Source: Elusimicrobiota bacterium (GTDB taxonomy: Bacteria; Elusimicrobiota; Elusimicrobia; UBA1565; UBA9628). Taken from it: 64,000 nucleotides of DNA. The notes under the pieces were generated by a model, which saw nothing but the letters and a program-made list of their open reading frames with translations, made no database searches and was not told the origin of the DNA. A program made the position numbers and the translations under genes. Where the stretch lies: NCBI GenBank assembly GCA_036676805.1, contig JAKFCD010000083.1, positions 1,211 to 65,210 on the forward strand, in the 5' to 3' direction. Positions 23,942 to 59,223 of this stretch are shown here, piece after piece; within the stretch, counting starts at the first letter, position 1; every line of letters begins with the position of its first letter.

Positions 23942-25270
23942 ATGAACAGGATCACCCGCTTTTTCCTCTCCCTTTCCCTCATCCTCGCCGCCCCCGGCCT
24001 CGCCCCCTACCAGGCCGCCGCGCAGACGGTCTCGGCGCGAGTCGCGCCCCCCGCCGGACTCGCCGGCGCCGCCGGCGCGTCGATCAGCATCCTCGGCGGC
24101 GCGTCCGCCGTCCTGCCGTCCGCGAGCCCGCAGGCCGGGCTGATCCCCTCGCTGACCCCGGCCCCCTCGCTGGCGCCTCTGCCCGGCGCCCCCGTCGCCG
24201 CCGCGAACGCCGCCGCGCGCTGGATGGCCTATCCCGCGACGGCGCTCAAGGCCCCTTTCATCCGCGCCGCGGCCACTCCCGAAAAATTCGCCGCTCCCGC
24301 TCCCGCCGCAGCCCTCTCCGTCCTGAGGACCGGCGGCGCCGCGGTCGCCGCTTCCAACGAAGCCGCGGCGGACGCCCCGCGCGAGGCGCTCGACGGACTT
24401 TTCGAAGGCTCTATCGCCCGCCCCGAGAGCCTCGCCGTCGCCGGCCTCTCCGCCCCTTCGGACTCGCCCCGCCTCGCCCCTTCTCAAGGCCCGCGCTGGG
24501 TCAAGTCCCTGCGCGCCCCGGACGCGGCGCCCGCGCCGGCGACCTCGGCCAAGCGCACGCTCAACGTCGGCTTCCTCGCCGCGGTCATCCCGATCGCGAT
24601 CACCATGGTCACCGTCGTCGTCGCCCAGCTGCTCGGCTACGAGCTGCACCCCAACTACCAAGGCCCCGATGCCGGGGCGATGCCGACGATCTTGAGCGCG
24701 CTGGCCATGTGGGTCGGCGCCGCCGTGATGGCCCCGATCTCGGAGGAGGCCATCTTCCGCGGCGGCCTTCAGGGGAAGCTGGCCAAGCTCTCGGCGAAAT
24801 TCCGCCTGGGCTCCTTCGTCCTCCCCGCCGCCGTCACCTCCCTCATCTTCGTGGCGCTCCACGAGACCGCGGACCCCGTGCTCTTCGCCACGCGCTTCGT
24901 GCACTCGATGATCCTCGGCCGCGTCTACCAGAAGGAGGGCATACTCGCCGCGATGGCCGCGCACGGCTTCTTCAACGGCCTGCTCGCCTCCTCGATCGTG
25001 TTCGCCGCCATCGGCCTGCCCTGGCTCGGCATCGCGACCGTACCCGTCGCTCTCCTCTTCGCCTGGCGGGCCGCCAAATCCCTGCGCGGGCAAAAATCCG
25101 ACCGGGCCTCCGGCGCCCTGAGGCCCAAGCCGCTGAGCGCCGCCCTCGCCTTCCTCATGGCCGCCGTCCTCGTCGCCGGCTACTTCTTCCTGATGCCGAA
25201 TATCTTCTGGGCCATCGGCGCCGTCGCCTTGGCGGTGAAGGGGATTATGACGCTCCAAGCCAAGAAATAG
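23942..25270 (+). CDS. CPBP (CAAX/Abi) intramembrane glutamic protease with signal peptide and Ala/Pro-rich leader
   Basis: APISEEAIFRG, FVALHE and AHGFFN motifs; about 200-aa low-complexity N-terminus. Confidence 0.88.
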   Translation: MNRITRFFLSLSLILAAPGLAPYQAAAQTVSARVAPPAGLAGAAGASISILGGASAVLPSASPQAGLIPSLTPAPSLAPLPGAPVAAANAAARWMAYPATALKAPFIRAAATPEKFAAPAPAAALSVLRTGGAAVAASNEAAADAPREALDGLFEGSIARPESLAVAGLSAPSDSPRLAPSQGPRWVKSLRAPDAAPAPATSAKRTLNVGFLAAVIPIAITMVTVVVAQLLGYELHPNYQGPDAGAMPTILSALAMWVGAAVMAPISEEAIFRGGLQGKLAKLSAKFRLGSFVLPAAVTSLIFVALHETADPVLFATRFVHSMILGRVYQKEGILAAMAAHGFFNGLLASSIVFAAIGLPWLGIATVPVALLFAWRAAKSLRGQKSDRASGALRPKPLSAALAFLMAAVLVAGYFFLMPNIFWAIGAVALAVKGIMTLQAKK

Positions 25271-25271
25271 A

Positions 25272-27023
25272 ATGCGCTCCGCCGCAATCGCATTAATAAT
25301 CACGCTGCTCTCGGCTTCATTCCCCGCCGATGCCTTCGCCCAAATACGATCGGCGAAGCCGATCGCAGCTCCAAACCCCGCAATATCCGTCCTATCCTTC
25401 ACGGGCGCCGGTCTTCCCGTGAACTTCTCCGCTCCGTTGTCGTTAAGTCTATCGCCGTCATTATCCCTCTCCGTTTTCGGCATCAACGTTCAAGGCGCGC
25501 CGGCGCTCCGAGCCGCCGTTTCGCCGGCAAGAATCGGATCCGTCGCCGTTCCCGGCATCGCGACCGCGAAGCCGCTGCCGTTATCCGTCCGCGTCGAATC
25601 CGCCTCGGCCCTGACGAAGGCTCTTCCCCGCATCCCCCTCGCCGCCGCCCCCGCCGCCGCCGCCCAGAGCTTCTCCCTGCTCACCGGCGAGGCCCTCGCC
25701 CTCCGGGGCGAATCCCTCACCGTCCTCCCTGCCCCCTCCCACTTCGACTCCCCGACCCTCGCTCCGGCGCTCCTCTCGCCGACTCCGCGCTCCCCCGCCC
25801 CCTCCCCCGAAGCCGCGAAGAACGTCCGGCGCATGATGATCGGCACCGCCGCGATGAAATCGGGCATGGAGACGATCACCTTGAGCGTCCCTCTGCTCGC
25901 CCTCACCGCCTTCGGCGGCATCTCCGCCGTCGCCGGGCTCGTCGTCGTCTACGGCCTTTCCCAAGCGGTCTTCGCCGCGATGGCCGGCGGCCTCGCCGAC
26001 CGCTTCTCCGCGCGCAAGGTCCTCGCCGGGGCCGTCGCCGCCCAGGCGGCCCTCGTCGGGACCCTGATCGCCGTCGGCGCCGCCGGCGCGCTCTCGATGG
26101 GGACCTTGATCCCGCTGTACCTGCTGATCGGCGGCGTCACCGGCGTCATCGAGACCGCGCGCCACTCGATCCCCACTCTGCTCCTCGGCCAGAACGAGGC
26201 CGCGCTCAAGAAGTACAACGCGAAGCTCCACATCTGGTACGAGGTCGCCGGCGTCGCCGGCGCCCTGACGGCGGGCGCCTTGATCGGCTTCGCCGGGCCG
26301 CTGTGGTCGCTCGTCATCCAACCCCCGGCCTTCGCGCTCGCCGCCTGGTATTTCTGGCGCGTGCGCCACGCGCTGCCCGCGGAGATCCCTCCCTCCGCGG
26401 GCGGCCTCCGGGGCCGCGTCTCCGATTACTTCAAGGACATCAAGGCCGGGGCCAAGCTCGTGATGGGCGACGGGCGCATGCGCTGGATCGCGCTCGCCTT
26501 CGTGCTGCCGCAGATCGTCCACCGCGTCTTCGAGGGCCTGCTGATCCCCGTGTTCGCGAAGACGGTGCTGGAGAACCCCTCGGCCTCGGCCTGGCTGCTC
26601 ACCGCCTCCAACGCCGGCGAGCTCGCCGGCGCGGCCGTGCTGCTCAAGCTCGCCGCGCGCTTCCCCGGCACTCACGGCTGGGTCAAGTGGGGCGCCCTCG
26701 GCCTCCTGCTGACCTGGGCGCTGGCCTTCTCGACGAGCCTGCCGATCCTGCTGCCCCTGATCCTCTTCTCCTCGCTCACCTGGGCCGCCAGCGACCTGTC
26801 GCTGCGCTCCGAGGTCCAGCGCACGGTCTCCGAGAAGGACCAGCCGCGCGCGATCAGCTTCCTGTACGGCGCGTTCGTCCTCGGCTCGGCCCTCGTCACC
26901 CTCGCGCTCGGCGCCCTGTTCGGCGCGCTTGCGACGGCGACCGCGCTGTTCTGGATCTGCGGCGGCTTCAGCGCCCTGGCGCTCGCCGTCCTCTACGCCT
27001 CGCGCCGCCTCAAGCGCCGTTGA
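25272..27023 (+). CDS. MFS transporter with signal peptide and long Ser/Pro/Ala-rich leader
   Basis: GGLADRFSARKVL (MFS motif A), about 12 TM helices after residue ~185. Confidence 0.88.
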   Translation: MRSAAIALIITLLSASFPADAFAQIRSAKPIAAPNPAISVLSFTGAGLPVNFSAPLSLSLSPSLSLSVFGINVQGAPALRAAVSPARIGSVAVPGIATAKPLPLSVRVESASALTKALPRIPLAAAPAAAAQSFSLLTGEALALRGESLTVLPAPSHFDSPTLAPALLSPTPRSPAPSPEAAKNVRRMMIGTAAMKSGMETITLSVPLLALTAFGGISAVAGLVVVYGLSQAVFAAMAGGLADRFSARKVLAGAVAAQAALVGTLIAVGAAGALSMGTLIPLYLLIGGVTGVIETARHSIPTLLLGQNEAALKKYNAKLHIWYEVAGVAGALTAGALIGFAGPLWSLVIQPPAFALAAWYFWRVRHALPAEIPPSAGGLRGRVSDYFKDIKAGAKLVMGDGRMRWIALAFVLPQIVHRVFEGLLIPVFAKTVLENPSASAWLLTASNAGELAGAAVLLKLAARFPGTHGWVKWGALGLLLTWALAFSTSLPILLPLILFSSLTWAASDLSLRSEVQRTVSEKDQPRAISFLYGAFVLGSALVTLALGALFGALATATALFWICGGFSALALAVLYASRRLKRR

Positions 27024-27024
27024 T

Positions 27025-27080
27025 GGTGTCAGGCTTGTCGTTCTTTGCATAGTTATGCAAAGAACGACAAGCCTGACACC
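27025..27080. repeat. REP-like perfect palindrome with 27-bp arms
   Basis: GGTGTCAGGCTTGTCGTTCTTTGCATA-GT-TATGCAAAGAACGACAAGCCTGACACC between convergent genes. Confidence 0.9.
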
Positions 27081-27085
27081 AAGAT

Positions 27086-30465: not shown

Positions 30466-30617
30466 CCTATTTAGTATGACTTATCCGTTTCGAATCCGCC
30501 ACGGCCGGGGCGCCCGGCCGCAATAAATTCGAAACGGCGTCCTGCTACGATGTTCCCAAGACGCGGCGGAAAGGCGCACTCGAACCGACAACAGTCCGCG
30601 TCGACCCCACCAGGAGC

Positions 30618-30650: not shown

Positions 30651-30659
30651 CATTTTCCC

Positions 30660-32124: not shown

Positions 32125-32143
32125 ACCGCAAGACGCGAAATCC

Positions 32144-43419: not shown

Positions 43420-44234
43420 GGGGCCTTGGCCGCCTCGCGCTCGAGCGCGGCGCGGCGCTCCCAGGAGCCGGGATGCGTGCGGAAGTAGTCGGAGAGGCCC
43501 TCGGCGGCGACCCGTCCCGGGCCGCGGCGGAGCTCCGCGTCCGCCTTGAGGCCCAGGGCGTCGAAGGTCCGCAGGCCCGCGGCCGGATCGCGCTTGAGCG
43601 AGCGCAGCAGGCGCGCGGCGTAGGCGTCCGCCTCGAGCTCCTGGCCCGGCGAAAAGTGCAGCGAGGCGAGCAGGCGCGGTATGAGGATGACGCCGCCGAG
43701 CAGGGCGCGCAGCGGGTCCTTGGCGCCCGCGCGCAGGCGGTACGCGTCGGCGCAATGGCCGAGCTCGATGTGGCCGATCTCGTGGCCGAGCGTGAACAGC
43801 AAGGCGTCGGGATCCTGGTGGAGCTTCTCGAGCAGCCCGAAGGTCGCGTAGACGAAGCCGCCGGGGACGGCGAAGGCGTTGACCTGGCGGTGGTCCGAGG
43901 TCCGGAAATCGTAGCGCCCGCGAAAGCGCGTCACGAGCGGCGAGCCCGCCGCCTCGAGGCCGAGCTCCCTCCACAGGGCGGCGCGCGAGGCGCCGGTCGT
44001 GCCGGGCGCCGGCTCGGACGCGCCCAGGTCCTTGGCGATTCTCTCGCCGATGGCGCGCTCCTCGTCGGCCGAGAGCGGGAAGACGATCGCCGAGCCCCGG
44101 TCGAGGCCCTTGGCGTGCTCGGCGACGGCGCGCGAGACGGGCAGAAGGCTCTCCCGGCTGCGCCCGCCCCGGCTCACGACGAACGCGGCCGACAGGGCGA
44201 AGGCGACGAGCGCGAACGGCGCGGCCTTTTTCAC
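43416..44234 (-). CDS. M48 family metallopeptidase
   Basis: VNAFAVPGG, GHEIGH, QELEAD and THPGSWER. Confidence 0.9.
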   Translation of the reverse strand: MKKAAPFALVAFALSAAFVVSRGGRSRESLLPVSRAVAEHAKGLDRGSAIVFPLSADEERAIGERIAKDLGASEPAPGTTGASRAALWRELGLEAAGSPLVTRFRGRYDFRTSDHRQVNAFAVPGGFVYATFGLLEKLHQDPDALLFTLGHEIGHIELGHCADAYRLRAGAKDPLRALLGGVILIPRLLASLHFSPGQELEADAYAARLLRSLKRDPAAGLRTFDALGLKADAELRRGPGRVAAEGLSDYFRTHPGSWERRAALEREAAKAP

Positions 44235-47302: not shown

Positions 47303-47348
47303 CGCCCGCCCCCTGGCGCGTCCTCTGAACTACTGTTATAGTGAACCC

Positions 47349-49286
47349 GTGAACTCCGGCGTCCTTGCGGCGATTTTCGTGCTCTTCCTGGCCGTCCCGT
47401 CGGACGCCGGCCAGGTGGAAGCCCCCGTATCCGTCCAGGTCCGGCCGGGCGGCCAAGCCGGCTCCATCGGCTCCTCTTTGGGCGCCCCCGCCCCGGTCCG
47501 GCTCGACGTGCTCTCCCTGACGGGCGTCGGGTCGCCGAGCCTGGCCTCGGCTTTGGCCCCGGCCCCCGTTTTCGCCGTTCCCGCCGCCCCCGCCGCCGCC
47601 GTCCCCGTCCTGCCGGTCTCCGCCGTGACGGCGGCCGGGCCCGCCGCGCTCGGCCAAGGGATTCGCCCGGCCGCGTCGGCTCCCGCGTCGCCCGCCGACC
47701 CCGGCGAAAGCGGCCTGGCCGAGGGCGCGGCGCTGTTCGATCAGGCCAAGCCCACGCTTTGGAGCGCCCTGCGCGAGCGCCTGCCTTTCGGCGAGCGCGC
47801 GCCTTCCTGGCCCGGCAAGGCCGGCGACGCCGTGCGCGTCGGGGGCGTCAAGGCCGTCCTCGACAAGCCCGTCGGCGACGGCGGGACCTCGAAGGTCTGG
47901 AGGTCGCGCGACGGGAACTACGCGATCAAGCTCCTGCATCCCGGCGCCCTGGCGCTGGCGGGCGTGCGCGAGGAGGCGGCGGCCTTGCGCGCTGTCTCGG
48001 CTTCCGACCTGCCCGTGGCCAAGCTCGTCGCCGAGAGCCGCGACGGGAAGGTCCTCGTCAAGGAGTTCATCGACGGCGCGACCGCCCATGAGCTGCTCGA
48101 GCGCGGACCGTTCTCCCGCTCCCAGGCCGAGGGCTGGCCCGAGCTCGCCGCCAAGCTCCTGTCCGCGGGCGTCACCGCCGACCTGGCGCGCGGCAATCTG
48201 GTCTGGCAGCACTGGCGCACCCGCTGGGTGATCGTCGACGCGGGGGGCCTCGAAGCCGGCGGCGCCAAGCCCGTGCTCGATCAGCTGCTGGCGCCCGAGC
48301 TGCTCGCCCGCACGGGCCTCGACGGGGCGGCCTTCCTGTCGGGCCTGCGCGCGCGCCTCGGCCCGGATTCCGCCGCCTGGGCCCGGACGCTCGCGGAGCT
48401 TCAAGCCGCGAAACTCGCCGCGGGGCCGCTGGCCGAGCTCGCCCGCCGCGACGCCGCGCGCCCCGCCGCGCCCCGCCTCGTCTTCGGGCCGGCTCCCCAA
48501 GGCCCGGCCGGGCTCGACGACACGGTCGTCACCGCCCGCGAGGCCGTCAGGCGCGCCGGCTACGACGCGCTGAACGCCAGGACGAAGCACAAGCTTCACG
48601 GCGACGACCCGGGCAAGCTCAACACCGTCATCTTGGCCGTCGAGGCCCCGGGTCAGGTCCCCTACGTCGTCAAGATCGCCCAATGGGACATCATCCGCAA
48701 CGAGGTCGCCCTGCGCCGCCTCGCCCGGCGCTTCTTCGGCCGCTACTTCCGCGTTCCCGCCTCCGTCGCGGTCAGGAACGGCTTCGAGTCGTACATGATC
48801 ATGGAGAAGCTCGACGCGTCGCCGTCGCACTACAAGAACCCGCTGAACAAGGAGCAGCGCGTGGCGGCCGCCCTGTTCCTGCGCACCTTCGGCGTCGGCG
48901 ACGTCAATCCCGGCAACGTGCTCGCCGGCCGCGACGGCGGCCTGCCCTGGCTTATCGATTTCGAGCAGGCCCTCGGCCGCGCCGCCCCGGTCGCCGGCCG
49001 GGTCCCCGACGAGCGCATCGCCCTCGAGATGCCGTGGCTGAGCCGAAGCGAGCGCAACGCCGTCGAGGACTATCAGCCCGGCGTGCGCGCCTGGCGCGAA
49101 TTCCTCAAGAAGCCCGAGACCCGCGCCGCGATCGCCGCGGATCTGACCGCCTCGGGCTTCACGCCGGCCGAGGCCGCCGGCCTCCTCGCCCGCTTCGACC
49201 TCAACGCCGCGGACCTGGACTGGACGCTCCAAAATGACGCAGACTTCGTGAACCAATTTGTCGACCGCAACGCCGCACACAGGTAA
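47349..49286 (+). CDS. Secreted protein with two kinase-like domains
   Basis: Signal peptide and leader; GDGGTSKVW..YAIK..DLARGN..IVDAG; then YVVK..GDVNPGNVL..LIDFE. Confidence 0.75.
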   Translation: MNSGVLAAIFVLFLAVPSDAGQVEAPVSVQVRPGGQAGSIGSSLGAPAPVRLDVLSLTGVGSPSLASALAPAPVFAVPAAPAAAVPVLPVSAVTAAGPAALGQGIRPAASAPASPADPGESGLAEGAALFDQAKPTLWSALRERLPFGERAPSWPGKAGDAVRVGGVKAVLDKPVGDGGTSKVWRSRDGNYAIKLLHPGALALAGVREEAAALRAVSASDLPVAKLVAESRDGKVLVKEFIDGATAHELLERGPFSRSQAEGWPELAAKLLSAGVTADLARGNLVWQHWRTRWVIVDAGGLEAGGAKPVLDQLLAPELLARTGLDGAAFLSGLRARLGPDSAAWARTLAELQAAKLAAGPLAELARRDAARPAAPRLVFGPAPQGPAGLDDTVVTAREAVRRAGYDALNARTKHKLHGDDPGKLNTVILAVEAPGQVPYVVKIAQWDIIRNEVALRRLARRFFGRYFRVPASVAVRNGFESYMIMEKLDASPSHYKNPLNKEQRVAAALFLRTFGVGDVNPGNVLAGRDGGLPWLIDFEQALGRAAPVAGRVPDERIALEMPWLSRSERNAVEDYQPGVRAWREFLKKPETRAAIAADLTASGFTPAEAAGLLARFDLNAADLDWTLQNDADFVNQFVDRNAAHR

Positions 49287-51611: not shown

Positions 51612-54347
51612 ATGCCCGCTCCCGTGATCGCTTTCCTCCTCGCCTTCGCCGTCGCCGCGCATGCGGCTCCCCCCGTAAGGCTGGCGCTCATCGAGGACTC
51701 TCCGACGCGCACGACCCTGCAGCTCGCCCAGCCCCTCGAGCGGGTGCTGCGCGACGCCGGGGCGGACGCCGCCTTGCTCGGAGTGGAGAGCGTGCCGGTC
51801 TACTTCGGCGGCCCCGACTATCGCTTCCGCCTGCCCCCGGGCCGCGGGGCGCCCAACGGCGAGGAGACCTCGACGGCCGCCTTTCTCGAGGGAGACGCGG
51901 CGGTCGTGTTCGTGTTCCCGGCCGAGGAGTCCCTCGTCGAGGCCCTGCGCCTGGCCGCCGCCGACCCGAGGACCTTCCGCGCGCCCGACTCGGTGCGCCT
52001 GACGCCGGGCGACGCCGAGTTCGCCTCGACGACCGGGCCCGACGGCGAGACCCTGCTCTTCCTGCGCGCGCGCCTGCAGCGCCCGGCCACCGGGCGCCTG
52101 CGCTCGGGGCTCGCCGCCTACTACCGCCTGCGCTGGAAGGGCCGGGACGCCGCCGTCGCCGTCGTCGGGCGCACGTTCGGCGGCCTCGGCCGCCTGGGCG
52201 CGGCCGCGGAGCGCGAGGCGGCGGGCGGGCCCTTCACCGGCCTCGCGCGCGGCGGCACGTTCGGCTCGCCCGCCTCCGACGCGCGCGGCCCGGCCGTGCT
52301 GGCCGCCCTCGAGCGCGCGGGCCTGCGCCTGGCCTCGGCCTCCGCCTCCGAGCTCGAGCACTGGAAGGCGCTGACGGCCCACGCCGGCGGCGTGCGCTGG
52401 CTCTCGGCGAATCTCGTCTATTCGACTCAGACGACGCGGACGGTCCTGGAGCCCTACGCGGTGTTCACGGCCTCGGGCGCGCGCGTCGCCGTGGCCGGCC
52501 TCACGCCGCCGTCGGCCGAGCGGCTTCTGAAGGCGCACGGCCTCGACGGCTTCAAGATTCTCGAGCCGCTCGCGGCGCTCGAGCCCCTCATACCGCGCAT
52601 GCGCGAGGAGGCCGACCTCGTCCTCGTGCTGTCCGACCTGCCGCCCGCCGAGCAGGCGCGGCTGAGCACGCTCGCGCGCGGCCTGGACCTGATCGTCGGC
52701 GACGACGCGCCCTTCGTGAGCCATACCCCTCCGCCGGCGAGCGTCGTCGAGCAGGACGACCGGCCGGTTTTCGCCAACGCCTTCCCCCCCCTGCGCGTCT
52801 ACGCGCCGGCGCTCAACGTCATCGAGGTCGCGCGCGCTCCCGACGGCGACCGCGTCGACTGGCGCGTCGCGCAGTCGGCGGTCTTCCTCGACGACTCCGT
52901 CAATCCCGCTCGCGGCTATCCCGAGGGCTCCTTCGACGCCTTCTCGATCGTCAGCTCCACGATCCCGCCGCTGCTGCCCGACGCGCGCGCCGTCTTCGCG
53001 GCCCATGAGCGCGCCGGCGGCTTCCCGATCTACGGGCCGCGCGACTTCTGGACCCTGGCGGCGGTCCTGCTCTCCGAGCGGGGCAAGGCCGAGGCGGGGC
53101 TCCTGCTTGCCCCTCCGCTCGGCGTCCAGAGCGTCGGCGAGATCCGCGAGTCCTACGTCCGCGAGTGGCTCGGGCCCTCCGACCCGGCGGTCACCGTCTC
53201 GCTCAAGGGCGACCGGCTGCGCGCCCTCATCGAGGAGGCGGCTTCCCAGGCCCGCCGCGAGGCCTCCGGCGTCTCGCTCGGACCGCGGCCGCGCTTCGTC
53301 GTCGGCGGCGTGGATTCCAAGAAGCGCCTGCGCGGCGCCCCGCTCGACCCGTCCGGGACCTACCGAGTGGCGACCTCGCGCGCGGCCGCCGACGCCCTGG
53401 GCCTGCCCGAGCCCCGCGAGCCGCTGCTGAAGTCGCCCGCCGTCGGCCCCGCCGTGCTCGACGAGCTCCGCGCGCGGGCGGGGCGCACGCCGCCCGCCGG
53501 CTACCGCGCCTGGATGGAGGGCGCGCCCGTGAGCGAGCCCGGCCTCTGGCGCCTGAACTTCCGCGACGTCGGGCTGAACCTGCGCCAGACCAAGGTCTCG
53601 CGCTCCGACGAGTTCGACGCGGTGCCCAACTCCCGCGTCCAGGGCTTCGACGAGCTCCTCGTCGGCGGCGTGTTCAAGGCCGACGCCGAGTATCTCAAGG
53701 GCGAGTTCAAATGGACGAGCACCGTCGAGGCCGAGTACGCCAAGAGCCGCATCGAGCCGCGCGACGCGCCCGCGACCGTCAACCTCGCGTCCAACCGCGT
53801 CATGCTTCTGACCTTGGGCACCCACCGCGCCGGGCAGATCCGCCGGGAATGGCTCGCCCGCTCCTGGGGTCCGTCGCTCGGCCTGCAGTACGACGGCGAG
53901 TTCGAGGCCGCGCGCGGCCTGCGCCGCAAGCAGGCCTACAGCCTTTTCCCCGGCGTCGAGCTCTTCGACGGGACCTTCGTGCGCACCTTCACGCTCTCGG
54001 GCATCCTCAAGCGCGACCTGGGCCGCGAGCCGCCGAACACCCAGAGCGGCCTGCGCCTGCGCTCCGTGTTCTCCCGCGAGCTCGGGCCGTCCAAGGCCCT
54101 GCTCCAGGGCGAGCTCTGGAACAACTACTTCTTCCTGACCAAGCAGGACACCGCGGGCGACCTTCGCCTCGAGGGCGACTTCAACGTCAAGCTGCGCGTC
54201 CCGGTCCGCCGCCACCTGACCGTGGCCCCGTTCTTCGACTTCTACTGGTTCCAACTCAAGACCCGCCCCGACAAGGGCTACAGCATGACCATGGGCGTCT
54301 CCATCGGCTTCTCGCGGCTGTGGAAGCCCCAGTACGAGACGTTCTAA
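51612..54347 (+). CDS. Secreted protein with a degenerate 5'-nucleotidase-like region and C-terminal beta-barrel
   Basis: WLSANLV, PYAVF..GARVAVAGLT, ADLVLVLS, GLDLIVGD and LDPSGTYRVAT; amphipathic beta strands and terminal Phe. Start may be GTG 51624. Confidence 0.65.
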   Translation: MPAPVIAFLLAFAVAAHAAPPVRLALIEDSPTRTTLQLAQPLERVLRDAGADAALLGVESVPVYFGGPDYRFRLPPGRGAPNGEETSTAAFLEGDAAVVFVFPAEESLVEALRLAAADPRTFRAPDSVRLTPGDAEFASTTGPDGETLLFLRARLQRPATGRLRSGLAAYYRLRWKGRDAAVAVVGRTFGGLGRLGAAAEREAAGGPFTGLARGGTFGSPASDARGPAVLAALERAGLRLASASASELEHWKALTAHAGGVRWLSANLVYSTQTTRTVLEPYAVFTASGARVAVAGLTPPSAERLLKAHGLDGFKILEPLAALEPLIPRMREEADLVLVLSDLPPAEQARLSTLARGLDLIVGDDAPFVSHTPPPASVVEQDDRPVFANAFPPLRVYAPALNVIEVARAPDGDRVDWRVAQSAVFLDDSVNPARGYPEGSFDAFSIVSSTIPPLLPDARAVFAAHERAGGFPIYGPRDFWTLAAVLLSERGKAEAGLLLAPPLGVQSVGEIRESYVREWLGPSDPAVTVSLKGDRLRALIEEAASQARREASGVSLGPRPRFVVGGVDSKKRLRGAPLDPSGTYRVATSRAAADALGLPEPREPLLKSPAVGPAVLDELRARAGRTPPAGYRAWMEGAPVSEPGLWRLNFRDVGLNLRQTKVSRSDEFDAVPNSRVQGFDELLVGGVFKADAEYLKGEFKWTSTVEAEYAKSRIEPRDAPATVNLASNRVMLLTLGTHRAGQIRREWLARSWGPSLGLQYDGEFEAARGLRRKQAYSLFPGVELFDGTFVRTFTLSGILKRDLGREPPNTQSGLRLRSVFSRELGPSKALLQGELWNNYFFLTKQDTAGDLRLEGDFNVKLRVPVRRHLTVAPFFDFYWFQLKTRPDKGYSMTMGVSIGFSRLWKPQYETF

Positions 54348-54376
54348 CTTTCGTTTGACAGCCGTAACGGCGACTA

Positions 54377-54405
54377 TTGACAGAGCCCGCTACGGGGTCT
54401 ACACT
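54377..54405 (+). promoter_or_regulatory. Sigma70 promoter
   Basis: TTGACA-17 nt-TACACT, then SD GGGAGG. Confidence 0.75.
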
Positions 54406-54426
54406 GTCAGTCGCGGGAGGCCCCCC

Positions 54427-55194
54427 ATGAAATCGACCGGTTTTCTCGTTTTCGCCGGCATAATGGCCGTGATGCTCGGGTCTCCGCTCCCGGCCCTCGC
54501 CGAGGAGGATGAGGAGGAGGAATACGAGGAGGAAGCCTCAAACGACTCCCCCACGACCACGACCTCCACGAACGCGGGGGTGCCCGCGATCGACGAGCCG
54601 GCCCCGAAGCCCGTCTACCGGCGGCAAAGACCGGCCCGGCCGCGCGCTATTCCCCGCAATCCCGAGGGAGGGGGCGGAGGCGGAGGCTTCCCGCGTCAAC
54701 AGCCGGAAAGCGACGAGCCCGAATCCGATCCCGGCGAGAACGAAAATACATGGGAGCCGGAAACGCCCCGGGGAAAACCGGCGAACAACGTCTGCGACAT
54801 GCCCCCCCTGCGCCACATCAATGTCCACCTGATGGGCGGCAACGGCAACCGCTTCAAGGTCGACTCCACCCCGATCGTCTGCTCCACCGACCCCGGGACG
54901 AGGCACGAGCGCTACTGCCAGGAGACCATGCGCGACAACAACCGCCGCTGCTGCCCGGTCAAGCCCGAGGGACATCCGATGCGCGTGGCCTGCGAGCTGC
55001 TCCTGCTCGGCAAAGACCCCACAGACGGCATCGCCGGGCCGCGCTGGTCCTACATCGGCAGCGCCGGCGGAGTCGAACGGCACCCGGACAATCCCTTCCT
55101 GGCCTTCGCCTACGGCAAGGGCATCGTCCGCGCCTGCTCGAACGTGGCCAAGGTTTGCGGAGAAAAGGCCTTTAAGGTTCCCAACGCGAAATAA
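54427..55194 (+). CDS. Secreted Cys-rich protein, paralog A
   Basis: Signal peptide, acidic/Pro linker, domain INVHLMGGNGN..DSTPIVC..CCPVKPEGHP; start corrected. Confidence 0.8.
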   Translation: MKSTGFLVFAGIMAVMLGSPLPALAEEDEEEEYEEEASNDSPTTTTSTNAGVPAIDEPAPKPVYRRQRPARPRAIPRNPEGGGGGGGFPRQQPESDEPESDPGENENTWEPETPRGKPANNVCDMPPLRHINVHLMGGNGNRFKVDSTPIVCSTDPGTRHERYCQETMRDNNRRCCPVKPEGHPMRVACELLLLGKDPTDGIAGPRWSYIGSAGGVERHPDNPFLAFAYGKGIVRACSNVAKVCGEKAFKVPNAK

Positions 55195-55196
55195 CC

Positions 55197-56423
55197 ATGT
55201 ATTTTCTCGGCCTCGACTTGCGTAAAGCCGCGCCCTTGGCTTTCGTCTTCGCCGCGTTGGCCTGCGGCGGCGGCATCGACGGCGGAGCGGGGGGCTGCGG
55301 CCCCGAGTTCGACGCCGACAAGATCGCCGAGGACGCCAAGAAAGGCAACAACACCAAGGAAGGCGCCGCAGCCCGGGCCGCGGCGGCCGACGCCGTCATC
55401 AAGACGGGCGAGGGCTACAAGAAGGACGGCTTCGCCGGCGCGGTCGAAGGATTTTCCGGAAGCGACGCCTTGCCGGGCTCGCCGAAAAGCGAGTTCGCAC
55501 GCTTGGCCCGGTCGCTGCCGCCCACGGAGGAAAACCGCAAGCTCATCGAGCAGGCCATGGGCCGGGAGGCCGCCCGCAGCGGCCCGGGACGGACCACCGA
55601 TCTCGCCGGAAACGGCGGCTACGCCTCCGTCGTCACCGGTGCCGACGGCCAGCCCAAGTGGCAGTGGAACGCCTACGACGGGAAGCACTCCGCGCCCAAG
55701 GGCTTCGACAAGCCGTACGTCCCCCCCGCGGGCTCCGCGCCGGCCGCGGCTCCCGTCGCCGAGACCGCCCCCGCCTCCACCACCGACCCGGCGATGACGC
55801 CGCCCGCCGGCTACACGGGCTGCTGGCCGAAGCCGCCGCCCGTCAGCAAGATCAACCTCCATCTGATGGGCGGCAACGGCAACCGCCGCATCGTCGATTC
55901 GACGCCGATCGTCTGCTCGGGGAGCTACTGCTCGGCGATCGGCTTCGCCGGGCGCGGCTGCTGCCCTGTACGCCCGGAAGGCGACCCCATGCGCACGAAG
56001 TGCGAGGCGGAGGTCATGGGCAAGAACGGGCCGCGCTGGATGTTCAAAGGCAACGGCCGCATCGAGAAGCGCGAGGACAACCCCTACCTCGCCTGGGCCT
56101 ACGGCATCGGCTGGGCCGGTGCCTGCTCGGGCATCTCGCCGGTGTGCAACTGGATCGAGGTGAAAAACGAGAACGCCCTCAAGGAACTCGAAGCGGCCAA
56201 GACCGCGTCGGCCGCCGGAGCGGGCGGCGGGGGCGGAGGCGGGGGCGGAGGAGGATCGTCGGGGTCCGGCTCGCCCTCGGGTTCGAGCGGCTCTGCGCCG
56301 AAATCCGGCGACGGAACGCCGCTGAAGGCCTCGACGGACACAGCACCGGGCAACTCCAACCTGGAAAGCCTGATTCCGACGATCCCCGAGGTCGCGCCGG
56401 CCACGGACACGCCGCCGTATTAA
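55197..56423 (+). CDS. Cys-rich putative lipoprotein, paralog B
   Basis: AALAC lipobox; the same domain INLHLMGGNGN..DSTPIVC..CCPVRPEGDP; Gly/Ser tail. Confidence 0.8.
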   Translation: MYFLGLDLRKAAPLAFVFAALACGGGIDGGAGGCGPEFDADKIAEDAKKGNNTKEGAAARAAAADAVIKTGEGYKKDGFAGAVEGFSGSDALPGSPKSEFARLARSLPPTEENRKLIEQAMGREAARSGPGRTTDLAGNGGYASVVTGADGQPKWQWNAYDGKHSAPKGFDKPYVPPAGSAPAAAPVAETAPASTTDPAMTPPAGYTGCWPKPPPVSKINLHLMGGNGNRRIVDSTPIVCSGSYCSAIGFAGRGCCPVRPEGDPMRTKCEAEVMGKNGPRWMFKGNGRIEKREDNPYLAWAYGIGWAGACSGISPVCNWIEVKNENALKELEAAKTASAAGAGGGGGGGGGGGSSGSGSPSGSSGSAPKSGDGTPLKASTDTAPGNSNLESLIPTIPEVAPATDTPPY

Positions 56424-56519
56424 ACGGCGGCGGCCGCGGAGCCGGTCAGGCCGGCCTCGAAGAGTATCTCATAGGCGCGGCCGAACGGCGCGGGCTTGCT
56501 CGCGTACAGGCTGATCTTC
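56420..56519 (-). pseudogene. Orphan duplicate of the thpR 3' end
   Basis: Encodes KISLYASKPAPFGRAYEILFEA..stop; 56454-56519 matches 57575-57640 at 63 of 66 nt. Confidence 0.85.
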
Positions 56520-56617
56520 ACTAGGACCTCGGGCCCAAAACGGCGTAGGCCGGCTGTCGGCGCCCGCCGGGCCATGACGCGCCCCCCTCCTCCCTCCAAG
56601 CGCGCTAGAATCGACCT

Positions 56618-57556
56618 ATGATCGCGGCGCTGCTGCTCCTCCTCGCCTCCACGGCCCATGCCGGCGTCGCGCGCGCGCCCGCCGCGCTCGGGCGCCTTCC
56701 GCTCTCCGCCGCGGCGACCTCCGTCTCCGCGCCGCCGTCTTTGCCCCCGTTCCTGAGCGTCGCCGACCCCGCCGACGGGCCGCGGCTCGCCGCCGTCCTC
56801 CAAGCCGCCCAAGCCTCCCCGACGGCCGTCGCCGTGCTGGCCCGAGTCGCGCGCGCGGCCGAGGCCCGCGGCCGCCCCGTCCTCGTCGAGGTCGCGGACA
56901 TGGAGGAGGCGGGGACCTGGAACCTGGACTGGGGCATCCTCAGCCTGCGCCGCGGCGACATGAACGCCGCGCCCCGCGAGAACGTCTCGACCTTGATCCA
57001 CGAGCTGCAGCACCTTCTCCAGACCCGGCCCGAAATCCCCTCGGACCTCCTGGAGACCGAGCTCGAGGCCTTCGTCGTGGATTTCCGCGTCGGGCGCGAA
57101 CTCGGCGTCCGGCCCGCGCCCGGCTCGCACGACGCGAGGGCCCAGGCCGCCTTCAGGGAAGGGCTCGAGCCGTTCCTGGGCTACCTGCGCGCGCAATATC
57201 CGGAGAACGCCCAGCTGCACAAGACGCGCGCCCGCGCCTATGAGGCCCGGCTGCGCGCCGGCCTCGAGGCCTCGGTCTCGGAGCTCGAGCGGCTGAGCGT
57301 CGAGCGCGCGGACCGGGAGCGCGTGCTCGACCGGATGCGCGCGCTCGGACACTCGCGGGCGGAGGTCGAGCACTACCGGCAGGACGCCGTCGCGCCCATC
57401 GACGCGGATATCTCGGCGATGCGCCGCGCGATCGGCTGGGCGAAGGCGGACCTGGCGATCCTCGCCGACCCCGCGGCGCGGGCGCGGGCCCGCGCCTACG
57501 CGCGCTCCGTCATCCGCCGCGCGCGCGCCTTCCAGAAGATCTTCGCGCGCGATTAA
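56618..57556 (+). CDS. Secreted HEXXH zinc metallopeptidase-like protein
   Basis: Signal peptide ending AHA; STLIHELQH..ETELEAF; helical C-terminus. Confidence 0.75.
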   Translation: MIAALLLLLASTAHAGVARAPAALGRLPLSAAATSVSAPPSLPPFLSVADPADGPRLAAVLQAAQASPTAVAVLARVARAAEARGRPVLVEVADMEEAGTWNLDWGILSLRRGDMNAAPRENVSTLIHELQHLLQTRPEIPSDLLETELEAFVVDFRVGRELGVRPAPGSHDARAQAAFREGLEPFLGYLRAQYPENAQLHKTRARAYEARLRAGLEASVSELERLSVERADRERVLDRMRALGHSRAEVEHYRQDAVAPIDADISAMRRAIGWAKADLAILADPAARARARAYARSVIRRARAFQKIFARD

Positions 57557-58092
57557 GCGCCGCCGGCCAGCTTCGCCTCGAAGAGTATCTCGTAGGCGTG
57601 GCCGAACGGGGCGGGCTTGCTCGCGTACAGGCTGATCTTCGTCACCGGGCGGCGCAGGCCGAGGACGGGCTCGGCCTTGAGGGCGGCGACGAAGGCGGGC
57701 GGGGCGGCTTCGTCGCGGTTGCGCCCCAAGGTGAGGTGAGGCGAGTACGGGCGCGGCTCGTCGCGTCCGAGCAGGCCGGCGAGCTTCTCCATCGCCTCTG
57801 CGCCCTCGCTCAGGCCGATCCAGACCACGCGCGCCTCCTCGTGCGAGTCAAAGGCGTCCACGGCGCCGTAGACGATCTCGAACGGGGCCGTCGCGGCCGC
57901 GGCGCGCGCCATAAGCTCGCGGATCTCGGGCAGCCTCTCCTCGGTCGCCGTCCCGATCCAGCGCAAGGTCGTGTGCATGTCGCGCGGGTCCACCCAGCGG
58001 AAGCTTCCGCCGGCACGGCGCAGGCGCGCGACGGCCTCGGCGGCGGCCGATTTGATCTCCTCGTCCGCGGCGACGGCGATGAACAGGCGCAT
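57553..58092 (-). CDS. thpR: RNA 2',3'-cyclic phosphodiesterase (2'-5' RNA ligase family)
   Basis: MRLFIAV and two HxT motifs (HTTLRWIG, PHLTLGR). Confidence 0.93.
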   Translation of the reverse strand: MRLFIAVAADEEIKSAAAEAVARLRRAGGSFRWVDPRDMHTTLRWIGTATEERLPEIRELMARAAAATAPFEIVYGAVDAFDSHEEARVVWIGLSEGAEAMEKLAGLLGRDEPRPYSPHLTLGRNRDEAAPPAFVAALKAEPVLGLRRPVTKISLYASKPAPFGHAYEILFEAKLAGGA

Positions 58093-58111
58093 AAGAGATA
58101 AACTATATCTC

Positions 58112-58570
58112 ATGAAAGCCGTGGCGACGCGAGTTTTGTCGGCCTCCGTCCACTTGCGGGACGGCGAGCGCTCCGGAGAGAAGCGCTCGATCGGCCCCGG
58201 CCTTCTCATCCTGCTCGGCGTCGCGCTCGAGGACGACGAGGGGTCGGTCAAGAAGCTCGTCGACAAGCTCCTCGCCCTCCGGATTTTTTCCAACGACGGA
58301 GGCAAGTTCGACAAGTCCGTCCTGGACATCCGCGGCGAGATACTCCTCGTTTCCCAGTTCACCTTGTGCGCCTCGCTCAAGGGCGGCCGCCGCCCCGACT
58401 TCACCGCGGCCGCGCGTCCGGACAAGGCCGAGCCCTTGTACCGCCGCGCCGCGCAGCTGCTCGCGGCCGCGGGCTTGACGGTCCGCACCGGGGATTTCGG
58501 CGCGTCCATGGCCGTCGAATCGGTCAACGACGGCCCGGTGACCATCCTCCTCGACACCGTTTCGTTCTAG
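58112..58570 (+). CDS. dtd: D-aminoacyl-tRNA deacylase
   Basis: LRIFS, VSQFTL, GRRPDF and FGASMAV..VNDGPVT. Confidence 0.95.
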   Translation: MKAVATRVLSASVHLRDGERSGEKRSIGPGLLILLGVALEDDEGSVKKLVDKLLALRIFSNDGGKFDKSVLDIRGEILLVSQFTLCASLKGGRRPDFTAAARPDKAEPLYRRAAQLLAAAGLTVRTGDFGASMAVESVNDGPVTILLDTVSF

Positions 58571-58695
58571 GCCTTTCGGGCAATATTGAAATTTTGTGTT
58601 GTTTTTACTGCGCAATTGCAGTTGACCCTCATCAAATGCGCGGGTTGACCGCTCTCATCGGTGTTTATTCGCGAGCTTCCTATACTGTAGGGGCA

Positions 58696-59223
58696 ATGAA
58701 CACCAAGAAGACGACTTTCCTCTCCACTCTCGCTTTGATCCTCGCGACCTCGGCCTCGGCCCAGGTGACGTCGATCCTCCCCGGCGGCCGCGGCAACCTC
58801 TACATCGGCACCCCGATGAACCTTCCCGGCCCGGCGGCCAACATCGTCATCAGCCCGCGCATCAACCTGCCCGCGCCCCTGCTGACCCCGGTCTCCCCGC
58901 TCATGCTCGCCCCCGTCCCGGCGTCCATGATGGAAGCCGCCCCGGTCCGCCCCCTCGCCCTTCCCATCGCCGTGGTCGCGCTGGACCGCGCCGCCGCGCA
59001 GCGCGAGAACGTCGCGAGCTCCAACCGCGCCCTGCGCGCCAAGCTCTCCGCCCCGGCCCAGGGCGACGCGCCCGTCACGCCCAAGGAGATCGCCGCCGAG
59101 CGCGAGAAGCTCGAGAACCTCTTCGACGGCCGCCGCCGGCCCGCTGAGAAGTCTCCCGTGCGCTCCGACCGCCACCAGAGCCTTCCCGAACAGGACCTCG
59201 AAAGCGAGATCGGCGCCTACTAA
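58696..59223 (+). CDS. Secreted hypothetical protein made almost entirely of the Pro/Ala leader and LFDG motif
   Basis: Signal peptide ending ASA-Q; TATACT 9 nt upstream; KLENLFDG. Confidence 0.75.
   Translation: MNTKKTTFLSTLALILATSASAQVTSILPGGRGNLYIGTPMNLPGPAANIVISPRINLPAPLLTPVSPLMLAPVPASMMEAAPVRPLALPIAVVALDRAAAQRENVASSNRALRAKLSAPAQGDAPVTPKEIAAEREKLENLFDGRRRPAEKSPVRSDRHQSLPEQDLESEIGAY

What the first reader, a model, noticed from the sequence alone, without database searches (positions are those of the whole stretch)
23942..59223. Candidate export/targeting system: a common signal peptide + Ala/Pro leader + LF[DE][GQ] motif on unrelated cargo
Seen: the CPBP protease (..ALDGLFEGS), double kinase (..GAALFDQA) and 58696 protein (..KLENLFDG, essentially leader only) start with a cleavable signal peptide, Q at or near +1, and 100-130 low-complexity residues ending in this helix motif. 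The MFS (..AQSFSLLTGE) is a looser match, and the 56618 peptidase has only a short leader. Established: MFS and CPBP proteins do not normally need cleavable signal peptides, and ATP-dependent kinases are rare in the periplasm. Inference: the leader may be a second-step signal delivering enzymes and transporters into another cell (prey or host) or compartment, with 58696 a structural or decoy member. This is the best candidate for an undescribed system here, but similarity among low-complexity regions can mislead.
Basis: inference. Interest (0 to 1): 0.8.

Follow-up and report, generated by a model that had tools for sequence, protein, structure and literature searches.

The report
Shared export leader on unrelated proteins
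A group of soil and groundwater Elusimicrobia puts the same unusual N-terminal leader in front of dozens of unrelated proteins, many of them normally strictly cytoplasmic, which suggests an undescribed protein-sorting route.

Summary
In this 4.0-Mb Elusimicrobiota genome, 78 ORFs start with a Sec-type signal peptide plus an uncharged Ala/Pro/Ser/Leu-rich stretch. Of these, 29 carry exact FDG at residues 92-183 (shuffles 0.66; other genes 50 of 1875). A profile of 33 leaders finds 40-41 copies.

The core motif is hydrophobic-F-D-[G/Q/A], not LF[DE][GQ]. The leader is coding. GC3 is 0.88, and orthologues keep the signal peptide and FD motif down to 40% identity. 35 of 73 genes have a -10 box about 6 nt before the signal-peptide start codon.

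Cargo includes Lon, a ClpB-like ATPase, MoxR, glycogen synthase, PPK2, a tandem kinase, ABC/MFS transporters, nucleases, PLDs and peptidases. Several have leaderless paralogues.

The leader matches no Pfam or NCBIfam model. It is confined mainly to one family of the phylum: 17 of 38 genomes of the genus hold 16-42 copies, and 15 of 301 phylum genomes have any.

Best reading: a lineage-specific bipartite sorting leader for a destination other than the ordinary periplasm. No machinery was found, export was not shown, and the charge bias of the membrane cargo conflicts with simple Sec export.

The parts
23930..23935 (+). -10-like hexamer TATACT, 6 nt before the CPBP start codon (suggests a leaderless mRNA)
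23942..24022 (+). Signal-peptide-like start of the CPBP protein (27 aa, ends YQAAA|Q)
   Evidence: own heuristic, SignalP not run
24023..24409 (+). Low-complexity leader of the CPBP protein, ending in LFEG (24398-24409)
   Evidence: orthologues have LFEG or LFDS
23942..25270 (+). Whole gene: leader plus CPBP/Rce1-like intramembrane protease
   Evidence: Pfam PF02517, E 1.3e-15, residues 252-346; NCBIfam MrtJ-like, below cut-off
25272..27023 (+). Leader plus MFS transporter; signal peptide 25272-25340 (ends DAFA|Q); variant motif SFSLLTGE at 25668-25691; forms a conserved pair with the CPBP gene
47337..47342 (+). -10-like hexamer TATAGT, 6 nt before the GTG start of the kinase gene; the same stretch stands upstream in the orthologues read (seen as its translation)
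47349..49286 (+). Leader plus tandem protein-kinase-like protein; signal peptide 47349-47408/47411 (SDA|GQ); LFDQ at 47733-47744
56606..56611 (+). -10-like hexamer TAGAAT, 6 nt before the start codon of the 56618 gene
56618..57556 (+). Signal peptide plus a short (about 35 aa) leader-like stretch (SAPPSLPPF) and a DUF6782-like HExxH metallopeptidase; no FD motif; marginal member
   Evidence: (PF20573, E 1.8e-4, below cut-off); a full-leader DUF6782 paralogue is L029
58681..58686 (+). -10-like hexamer TATACT, 9 nt before the start codon of the small gene
58696..59223 (+). Small protein (175 aa): signal peptide 58696-58761, leader, LFDG at 59119-59130, then a conserved tail ..RSDRHQSLPExDLExEIGAY; best-scoring member of the leader profile
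   Evidence: (E 3.5e-22)

Best explanation
The five window genes belong to a genome-wide set of proteins that share a modular N-terminal leader. The parts, in order, are:
(1) A Sec/SPase-I-type signal peptide: basic n-region, 10-16-residue h-region, small residues at -1 and -3, usually A|Q.
(2) An almost uncharged Ala/Pro/Ser/Leu-rich stretch of about 70-150 residues, predicted disordered. It holds one conserved block (P-[SA]-L-S .. L-[ST]-P .. [LV]-S-A-P-S-[LA]-x-P).
(3) A helix.
(4) The motif hydrophobic-F-D-[G/Q/A]-[A/S], often followed by a basic residue. The cargo follows, in glycogen synthase within two residues.

Shown: the leader is translated, conserved, lineage-specific, and fused to many unrelated cargo families.

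Inferred: the signal peptide takes the protein through Sec and is cut before Gln. The spacer and the FD motif then act as a second signal, a recognition or processing site. That signal separates these proteins from ordinary signal-peptide proteins, which lack it, and sends them to a destination other than the ordinary periplasm.

Three features of the cargo bear on that destination. ATPases with intact motifs and PPK2 need nucleotides. Secreted-type nucleases, lipases and peptidases are present. The K/R-rich ('inside') loops of the exporters lie on the leader side. Together these fit best with an ATP-containing space that is cis to the leader's C-terminal end. The simplest such space is the cytoplasm and inner membrane of another cell, with an energised envelope compartment as the alternative. 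This last step is the weakest.
For: Scale and non-randomness. 78 composition-defined leader ORFs were found; 29 of 78 have FDG at residues 92-183 (median 137), against a shuffle mean of 0.66-0.67 and 50 of 1875 other genes. Profiles of the leaders give 49 six-frame ORFs at E<0.01 and 40-41 matches in G000.

Conserved blocks. These are visible in alignment A1 of 33 leaders; the first polar residue after the h-region is Q in 38 of 57 leaders against 92 of 624 other signal-peptide-like starts.

Real starts and coding. 35 of 73 leader genes have TAnnnT 3-12 nt (mode 6) before the signal-peptide start codon, against 36 of 4423 control positions. Leader GC3 is 0.88 against 0.94 in the cargo, with the same synonymous codon preferences.

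Purifying selection. Lon orthologues in four of the five Elusimicrobia loci read keep the signal peptide and [FY]DG, with in-frame indels in the spacer; the fifth locus is a fragment without the N-terminus. The more distant kinase homologues read in full (12 of 70, 39-55% identical) keep signal peptide, spacer and an F-D motif. CPBP and MFS orthologues keep their variants.

Structure. AF2 of a leader gives coil plus a helix at 94-123 ending at FDG (pLDDT 68, pTM 0.27).

Cargo. 34 of the 64 leader proteins scanned have a Pfam hit at E<=1e-3. These include Lon, a LonB-like protein, a ClpB-like ATPase, MoxR, glycogen synthase, PPK2, ATP-grasp+MFS, a fused ABC exporter, MFS transporters, MscS, CPBP x2, M50, M48, M16, S41, M28, S8, PLD x3, endonuclease I, PD-(D/E)XK, GH13, LOG and haem peroxidase.

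ATPase motifs. Walker A and B, the Lon Ser-Lys site and the ABC signature are intact.

Paralogues. Leaderless paralogues exist for Lon, Clp, GlgA, MoxR and LOG. Five genomes with 0 to 9 leader matches (two with none) hold only the canonical Lon.

A separate class. Ordinary signal-peptide proteins in the window lack the leader (Tsp at 49292, the UshA-like protein at 51612, MlaA).

Topology. K+R lies on the leader side in the cleanly predicted cases: L036 30 against 3, L034 23 against 1, L073 22 against 6, CPBP 17 against 6.
Against: Export, cleavage and any second step are all unshown. Signal peptides were called with my own heuristic only.

No machinery tracks the leader. Secretin and SPase I copy numbers are the same in leader-rich and leader-poor genomes.

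Polytopic MFS and ABC cargo with a Sec-exported N-terminal leader and no extra TM segment is topologically awkward. It could mean that the signal-peptide-like segment does not drive export.

Only 29-35 of the 78 composition-defined ORFs carry an FD-type motif at the expected place, so the class is heterogeneous.

There is no sign in print of a predatory or host-associated lifestyle for this lineage. The DNA occurs in soil and groundwater metagenomes. Low-complexity regions inflate profile scores.
Confidence: 0.45

Rival explanations
1. Envelope tether or spacer. The signal peptide exports the protein. The Ala/Pro-rich stretch is only a long flexible linker that holds enzymes at a distance within the envelope or on the cell surface. 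The FD motif is a structural cap at the linker-cargo junction, not a signal.
For: The leader is predicted to be mostly coil. Its length and sequence vary freely between orthologues. Ala/Pro-rich linkers are common in envelope proteins (own knowledge). No dedicated machinery was found.
Against: F-D and the mid-block are conserved while the rest drifts. FDG also occurs directly after a signal peptide or a lipoprotein signal, without the spacer. A tether does not explain why Lon, ClpB-like, MoxR, GlgA, PPK2, kinases and ABC nucleotide-binding domains, all with intact ATP motifs, would sit in an ATP-free periplasm. It also does not explain the K/R bias of the polytopic cargo.
Confidence: 0.2
2. 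Cytoplasmic membrane anchor. The signal-peptide-like segment is not cleaved and does not drive export of the cargo. It tethers cytoplasmic enzymes and normally oriented transporters to the inner face of the membrane through a long linker.
For: This would reconcile the ATP-dependent cargo and the positive-inside bias of the MFS, ABC and CPBP cargo with ordinary cell biology. Many leaders have Arg at +3 or +4 after the putative cleavage site, which is unfavourable for Sec export in E. coli (own knowledge).
Against: The basic n-region, the short h-region and the A-x-A|Q c-region are the signature of cleaved, N-in signal peptides. No second hydrophobic segment exists that could bring the chain back: the best 19-residue hydropathy in leaders is mostly 0.8-1.9, in Pro-rich sequence. 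The cargo also includes typically secreted enzymes: endonuclease I, S8, S41, M28, GH13 and haem peroxidase.
Confidence: 0.12
3. Artefact. The leaders are mis-called upstream extensions in a GC-rich genome, or the similarity is only that of low-complexity sequence.
For: Long spurious ORF extensions do occur in this window, for example the Arg-rich extensions upstream of MlaA and LplT-Aas. LF[DE][GQ] alone is only mildly over-represented in the window: 5 observed against 1.3 expected.
Against: There are -10 boxes before the signal-peptide start codons. GC3 and codon usage are coding-like. In-frame conservation of the signal peptide and FD holds in orthologues down to 40% identity. All 89 hits among 1.84 billion representative proteins lie within about the first 180 residues of the protein, except one repetitive protein of 1923 aa. 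Enrichment is strong against shuffles.
Confidence: 0.02

Closest known systems
PEXEL/HT (Plasmodium) and RxLR (oomycete) host-targeting motifs
   Same: A signal peptide is followed, at a distance, by a short conserved motif on many unrelated cargo proteins. The motif marks them for onward transport beyond the secretory default. In Plasmodium a ClpB-type AAA+ protein (HSP101) works outside the parasite's cytoplasm, and a ClpB-like protein is among the leader cargo here. The comparison is from my own knowledge.
   Different: The motif differs (F-D-[G/Q/A] rather than RxLxE/Q/D or RxLR). The spacer is much longer (70-150 aa). The organism is a bacterium. No host, no processing protease and no translocon are known here.
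Bipartite presequences (signal peptide plus transit peptide) of complex plastids
   Same: A signal peptide is followed by an acid-poor, Ser/Ala-rich, unstructured presequence. It sits on paralogues of housekeeping proteins (Lon, Clp, starch/glycogen synthase, transporters). M16-type peptidases do the processing, and an M16 peptidase is among the cargo here. The comparison is from my own knowledge.
   Different: No organelle is known in Elusimicrobia. The conserved FD motif and the PSLS/SAPSL block have no counterpart. The genome is an ordinary bacterial one.
Lineage-specific bacterial sorting tags (PEP-CTERM/exosortase, GlyGly-CTERM/rhombosortase, MYXO-CTERM/CPBP myxosortase, T9SS C-terminal domain)
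   Same: A short tag plus a low-complexity region on dozens of unrelated proteins per genome, confined to certain lineages and found by comparative genomics. CPBP-family proteases act as sorting enzymes in some of these systems, and two CPBP proteins carry the leader here.
   Different: All of those tags are C-terminal and pair with an identified sorting enzyme. This one is N-terminal, directly after the signal peptide, and no partner enzyme was identified. No Pfam or NCBIfam model matches it.
Disordered N-terminal translocation domains of colicins and polymorphic toxins
   Same: A constant, unstructured N-terminal region with a short linear epitope is fused to variable C-terminal cargo, including nucleases, for entry into another bacterium (own knowledge; PMC3482391 was seen only in a search listing).
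   Different: The cargo here includes 12-TM transporters, 900-aa AAA+ proteases and metabolic enzymes. No receptor-binding domain and no consistent immunity genes were seen. Colicins have no Sec signal peptide.

Membership tests
Sec / signal peptidase I signal peptide | Basic n-region, 7-15-residue hydrophobic h-region, small residues at -1 and -3 | tested here: met
   Own heuristic and inspection of 70-plus N-termini. A dedicated predictor (SignalP) was not available.
Twin-arginine (Tat) signal peptide | S/T-R-R-x-F-L-K motif in the n-region | tested here: not met
   Read by eye from the N-termini printed: a minority have RR, and most have a single K or R or none (the window kinase has none). 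No count was made. Presence of TatC in the genome was not tested.
Lipoprotein (SPase II) signal | Lipobox with Cys at +1 | tested here: not met
   No Cys follows the h-region in the 33 aligned leaders. One FDG protein with a lipobox-like LTGC exists (C111).
PEXEL / RxLR host-targeting motif | RxLxE/Q/D or RxLR within about 60 residues after the signal peptide | tested here: not met
   The conserved columns of A1 are the signal peptide with AQ, the Pro-containing block and F-D-G. There is no RxL column.
Known extended signal-peptide or N-terminal sorting domains (ESPR, YSIRK and others in Pfam/NCBIfam) | A match to the family model | tested here: not met
   The 33 leaders scanned alone at E<=0.1 gave only single scattered hits (best 0.0024 in Pfam, 0.016 in NCBIfam).
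C-terminal sorting tags (T9SS CTD, PEP-CTERM and similar) | A C-terminal tag domain on the same proteins | tested here: not met
   No such Pfam family appeared among the hits of the 64 leader proteins scanned.
Eukaryotic-type protein kinase fold (cargo of 47349-49286) | Bilobal kinase fold with a catalytic Lys, D-x4-N and DF[GE] | tested here: met
   AF2 pLDDT 91. Foldseek probability 1.00 to PknB, JAK and TYK2, with tandem kinases aligned over 454-619 columns. Invariant K308, D384, N386, D403 and F404 in alignment A2. Pfam alone gave no significant hit.

The most novel reading that the evidence does not exclude
The leader is a bacterial counterpart of PEXEL or transit-peptide trafficking. It routes a 'second proteome' of about 40-70 proteins into an ATP-containing space outside the producer's cytoplasm. 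That proteome includes Lon, LonB-like, ClpB-like and MoxR proteostasis ATPases, PPK2 for ATP regeneration from polyphosphate, glycogen synthase and amylase, kinases, nucleases, lipases, and ABC/MFS exporters that keep their canonical cis orientation. The most coherent destination is the cytoplasm and inner membrane of a prey or host cell, where installed exporters would pump products out towards the Elusimicrobium. The alternative is an energised periplasm-like compartment.
Probability: 0.2. Interest if true: 0.95.

Novelty: new variant of a known kind. Interest (0 to 1): 0.82.

Why it matters
Genome-wide sorting tags have repeatedly led to new secretion or anchoring machineries, for example the T9SS and the exosortases. 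As far as my searches show, this one is undescribed, N-terminal and bipartite, which is otherwise known from eukaryotic parasites and secondary plastids.

It sits on proteins that textbook bacteriology places only in the cytoplasm: Lon, a ClpB-like ATPase, MoxR, glycogen synthase, PPK2 and the nucleotide-binding domains of an ABC exporter. If these are really exported, then either an ATP-using compartment exists outside the cytoplasm of a diderm bacterium, or an uncultured soil and groundwater lineage delivers a whole working proteome, transporters included, into other cells.

Either outcome would change how Elusimicrobia are understood and would add a new route to bacterial protein trafficking. 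The finding also yields a concrete, testable list: about 40 tagged proteins per genome, a two-residue core motif, and 17 tagged against 21 poorly tagged genomes in one genus for comparative work.

Tried and rejected
1. Shine-Dalgarno scan before the leader starts: 15 of 73 against 85 of 876 controls. Uninformative, because these genes appear to be leaderless mRNAs. Replaced by the -10 box test.

2. ATP/ADP translocase idea (TLC, PF03219). Only weak hits were found. One is the leader-bearing MFS-like protein L064 (23 bits). The other is a leaderless 418-aa ORF seen only in G000 and G002. Too weak to support an 'ATP export to the periplasm' reading.

3. Machinery by phyletic profile in 38 genomes of the genus. 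There are 2-4 secretins in every genome. A fourth secretin type occurs in 7 leader-rich genomes and 1 leader-poor genome but is absent from the other 10 leader-rich ones. SPase I gave 1-5 matches everywhere. Neither tracks the leader. In G000: one YidC, four secretins, four Omp85.

4. RNA evidence: no RNA holder is listed for window 56500-59300.

5. PDB sequence search of three cargo proteins without Pfam hits (L020, L008, L017) and of the kinase: 0 hits each.

6. ESM Atlas for the small protein: best score 0.83, no lead.

7. Earlier notes of this scan: nothing for this genome. A second query failed on a word limit and was not repeated.

8. Literature. Searches for Elusimicrobia + signal peptide + N-terminal, Lon protease + signal peptide + periplasmic ATP, and Elusimicrobiota + predatory + epibiont gave nothing on such a leader. 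The groundwater Elusimicrobia preprint 10.1101/765248 has 0 occurrences of 'signal peptide' or 'secret' (term search only). Passages read in 10.1101/2023.11.21.568195 and PMC13288927 were irrelevant. Supplements could not be seen.

9. My TM predictor is crude. It found 7-10 of the expected 12 MFS helices, so only the four cleanly alternating cases are used. P0002, L038, L064, the first half of L002 and L076 gave no clear bias.

10. My first profile was contaminated by three mis-anchored sequences and was replaced.

Full report
**Where the window lies.** The window is contig C83:1211-65210 of a 4.0-Mb, 139-contig, 68% G+C genome estimated 98% complete. Orthologues of one of its proteins lie in MAGs titled Elusimicrobia/Elusimicrobiota. 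All named homologues of the kinase cargo but one (filed only as 'bacterium') are 'hypothetical protein' from Elusimicrobia. Near-identical DNA occurs in soil and groundwater metagenome runs of several studies. The genome has BamA/Omp85, secretins and YidC, so it is an ordinary diderm by gene content.

**The observation.**
- Three have the full architecture: the CPBP protease (23942), the kinase (47349) and the small protein (58696). Each starts with a signal-peptide-like sequence ending in small residues before Gln. A nearly uncharged Ala/Pro/Ser/Leu-rich stretch of 100-130 residues follows, and then LFEG, LFDQ or LFDG.
- The MFS (25272) has the signal peptide and the spacer, but SFSLLTGE at the motif position. 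[QE]SF[SA]LLTGE stands in the three orthologues read.
- The 56618 peptidase has only a short leader-like stretch.
- The 'double kinase' is confirmed. An AF2 model built from 39 homologues has pLDDT 91 and pTM 0.88. It matches protein kinases, best of all tandem pseudokinase-kinase chains. Lys, D-x4-N and DF are invariant in the second domain.

**Scale.** The phenomenon is genome-wide.
- A motif-blind search asked for a signal-peptide-like start followed by 70 residues with at most 9% charged and at least 80% A/P/G/S/L/V/T/I. It gave 123 ORFs. 78 remain after requiring at least 9% Pro and no TM-like segment.
- Exact FDG occurs at residues 71-200 in 29 of these 78. Residue shuffles give a mean of 0.66-0.67 (maximum 4-5), and 50 of 1875 other genes have it. 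Several of those 50 turn out to be further leader proteins.
- FDG is the most enriched tripeptide in that region, 13.7-fold, ahead of the merely compositional ones.
Within the window its raw count is only mildly above chance, 5 against about 1.3.
- An HMM from 29 seed leaders finds 49 six-frame ORFs at E<0.01. The profile of alignment A1 (33 leaders) finds 40-41 in G000.

**Anatomy.**
- The signal peptide has a basic n-region and a short h-region, and ends [A/S/V]-x-[A/S]|Q. Gln is the first polar residue after the h-region in 38 of 57 leaders, against 92 of 624 other signal-peptide-like starts. The mature end often reads Q-[VTI]-R-[VA].
- A Gly/Ala/Ser/Val stretch follows, then a conserved block P-[SA]-L-S .. 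L-[ST]-P .. [LV]-S-A-P-S-[LA]-x-P with four near-invariant prolines.
- Next come a variable Ala/Pro-rich stretch, a helix with some charges, and hydrophobic-F-D-G-[A/S], often with Arg or Lys two to five residues later.
- AF2 predicts coil, except for the signal-peptide helix and a helix at 94-123 that ends at FDG (pLDDT 68, pTM 0.27).
- The F of FDG lies at residues 92-183, median 137.
- Variants show that the spacer is dispensable. FDG follows a signal peptide directly in one protein, follows a lipoprotein-like signal in an amidase-like protein, and follows a short leader in others.

**Is it translated from the signal-peptide start?** Yes, on three grounds.
1. 35 of 73 leader genes have a TAnnnT hexamer ending 3-12 nt (mode 6) before the start codon, against 36 of 4423 control positions. 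This is the spacing expected if transcription starts at the start codon (leaderless mRNA). Four of the five window genes show it: TATACT, TATAGT, TAGAAT and TATACT. The fifth, the MFS, starts right after the CPBP stop codon. In the kinase orthologues read, the stretch just before the start codon translates to the same residues as the window's TATAGT region.
2. Leader GC3 is 0.88 against 0.94 in the cargo, with the same synonymous preferences. The truly spurious upstream extensions in this window read as Arg-rich nonsense.
3. Orthologues keep the frame, the signal peptide and the F-D motif while the spacer drifts and gains in-frame indels. This holds for four Lon orthologues at 64-81% identity, for the 12 more distant kinase homologues read in full (39-55% identical; motif [GR]-R-x-[LF]-F-D-[G/Q/A/L]), and for the CPBP and MFS orthologues.

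**Cargo.** Of 64 leader-type proteins scanned against Pfam, 34 have a hit at E<=1e-3 and 30 have none. The hits fall into three groups.
- (a) Nucleotide-dependent proteins of cytoplasmic type: full-length Lon, a LonB/C-like protein, a two-ring ClpB-like AAA+, MoxR, GT5 glycogen synthase (whose domain starts two residues after FDG), PPK2, an ATP-grasp ligase fused to an MFS, a fused double ABC exporter, and the tandem kinase (by fold).
- (b) Polytopic membrane proteins: about seven MFS, the ABC exporter, two CPBP, MscS, M50 and M48.
- (c) Hydrolases of secreted type: M16, S41+PDZ, M28, two S8, three PLD proteins, endonuclease I, PD-(D/E)XK, a GH13 amylase and two DUF6782 metallopeptidases. LOG, ChaN and an animal-type haem peroxidase also occur.

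Walker A and B, the Lon Ser-Lys site and the ABC signature are intact (these motif patterns are recalled). The genome also holds leaderless paralogues of Lon (38% identity), Clp (41-44%), GlgA (40%), MoxR (50%) and LOG (46%). So the tagged copies form a second set. Five genomes with 0 to 9 leader matches (G003 and G009 with none) hold only the canonical Lon. Ordinary envelope proteins in the window (Tsp, an UshA-like protein, MlaA) have plain signals without the leader.

**Distribution.**
- No Pfam or NCBIfam model matches the 33 leaders, only scattered single hits at E>0.002.
- Among 1.84 billion representative proteins, the A1 profile finds 89 at E<=1e-3. All but one match within about the first 180 residues of the protein; the exception is a repetitive protein of 1923 aa.
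- In the GTDB genus the counts are bimodal. 17 of 38 genomes have 16-42 matches, and 21 have 0-11, five of them none.
- In a 301-genome sample of the phylum, 15 genomes have any match. 13 of those are in the window's own family.
- The profile was built from one genome, so it under-counts. The more distant kinase homologues read in full, 39-55% identical and mostly from MAGs of unstated placement, still show the architecture.

**How it most likely works.** Three things are shown: a translated, selected, lineage-specific N-terminal module, fusion to unrelated cargo, and the existence of a parallel untagged class of signal-peptide proteins. From these I infer a two-part address. The signal peptide gives Sec export and cleavage before Gln. 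The spacer and FD motif then act as a second signal, read by a receptor or a processing protease.

The destination is open, and two observations constrain it. First, the cargo mixes ATP-dependent machines with secreted-type degradative enzymes. Second, where my crude TM prediction alternates cleanly, the K/R-rich loops of the polytopic cargo lie on the leader side: L036 30 against 3, L034 23 against 1, L073 22 against 6, CPBP 17 against 6. The segment just before the first TM always carries 2-5 K/R. No extra TM segment lies between leader and cargo. Five of the ten proteins gave no clear bias, because helices were missed.

By the positive-inside rule, the leader's C-terminal end then sits on the 'cytoplasm-like' face. 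That conflicts with a simply Sec-exported leader in the producer's own inner membrane. Three readings resolve it:
- The proteins end up in, or are inserted from, the cytoplasm of another cell.
- They face an energised extracytoplasmic compartment.
- The signal-peptide-like segment does not export the cargo at all.

I rank the first as the most coherent with the whole cargo list. Exporters installed in a target membrane, proteostasis ATPases, PPK2, nucleases, lipases and kinases would all make sense there. It remains inference: no machinery, no host and no lifestyle evidence were found.

**Comparison with known systems.** The logic resembles PEXEL and RxLR host targeting and the signal-peptide-plus-transit-peptide presequences of complex plastids. 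It also resembles bacterial lineage-specific sorting tags such as PEP-CTERM, MYXO-CTERM and the T9SS C-terminal domain. The leader is not a member of any of these. The defining motifs or models were tested and not met, and the bacterial tags are all C-terminal. My literature searches found no description of it. Supplementary files could not be read.

**Verdict.** I file the feature as a new variant of a known kind, a genome-wide protein-sorting tag. There is a substantial chance that it reflects something categorically new in bacterial cell biology.

Noticed in passing
window 23930-23935, 47337-47342, 56606-56611, 58681-58686; genome-wide in G000: -10-like TAnnnT hexamers sit about 6 nt before start codons, and Shine-Dalgarno-like sequences are rare (15 of 73). 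This suggests leaderless mRNAs are common in this Elusimicrobium. Only the leader genes were tested, not the rest of the genome.
   Followed up: partly
window 58696-59223; L049, L054, L055: The small leader protein has a strongly conserved C-terminal tail after FDG (..RSDRHQSLPExDLExEIGAY, then stop). It is the best-scoring leader in the genome. G002 has two adjacent paralogues. Short frames with a strong leader match occur even in leader-poor genomes (G039, G015); the G015 one was read and is an orthologue. It could be a secreted peptide precursor or the founder of the leader family.
   Followed up: partly
window 54355-55194 and 55197-56423 (+): Two adjacent paralogous genes share a Cys-rich C-terminal domain (..N[VL]HLMGGNGNR..VDSTPIVCS..CCPV[KR]PEG.PMR..) behind acidic or Gly/Ser-rich low-complexity regions. 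Neither has a Pfam hit.
   Followed up: no
window 51612-54347 (+): A 911-aa protein with a plain signal peptide, a weak UshA/5'-nucleotidase-like region (NCBIfam E 2.4e-13, below cut-off) and a C-terminal part ending ..YETF, like an outer-membrane beta-barrel. It has no Pfam hit.
   Followed up: no
window 40030-43974 (-): A three-domain fusion of MFS, acyltransferase and AMP-binding enzyme, the LplT-Aas type of lysophospholipid transporter plus re-acylation enzyme. The longest ORF start is spurious, and the real start lies near the MFS domain.
   Followed up: partly
G000 C111:48763-50016 (-) (L062/L063); L064 730-2502 (-): A leaderless 418-aa ORF matches the TLC ATP/ADP-transporter family (69 bits in all). 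It was seen only in G000 and G002. A leader-bearing MFS-like protein has a weak TLC match of 23 bits.
   Followed up: partly
G000 C41:49633-76337: A cluster of at least seven consecutive leader genes (S8+M50, M48+MFS, PD-(D/E)XK, M28 and others). Between them lie a response-regulator receiver, two small cytoplasmic ORFs of 107 and 117 aa, a four-helix-bundle protein and a membrane adenylate cyclase. The small ORFs could be immunity-like, but this was not tested.
   Followed up: no
G037:C1:3796761-3798571 (L098/L099): In the single-contig relative G037 the kinase orthologue matches in two pieces in different frames (query 48-308 and 298-645). This is either a frameshift or an assembly error.
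   Followed up: no
G000 C10:15806-16276 (L088): A fourth secretin type (frame of about 470-510 aa) occurs in only 8 of 38 genomes of the genus. The other three secretin types are universal.
   Followed up: no
G000 C111:86025-89981 (L079); C75:19642-22686 (L077): Leader cargo with domains better known from eukaryotes: an animal-type haem peroxidase with a weak caleosin hit, and a four-domain PLD protein that also matches SACK1/FAM83.
   Followed up: no
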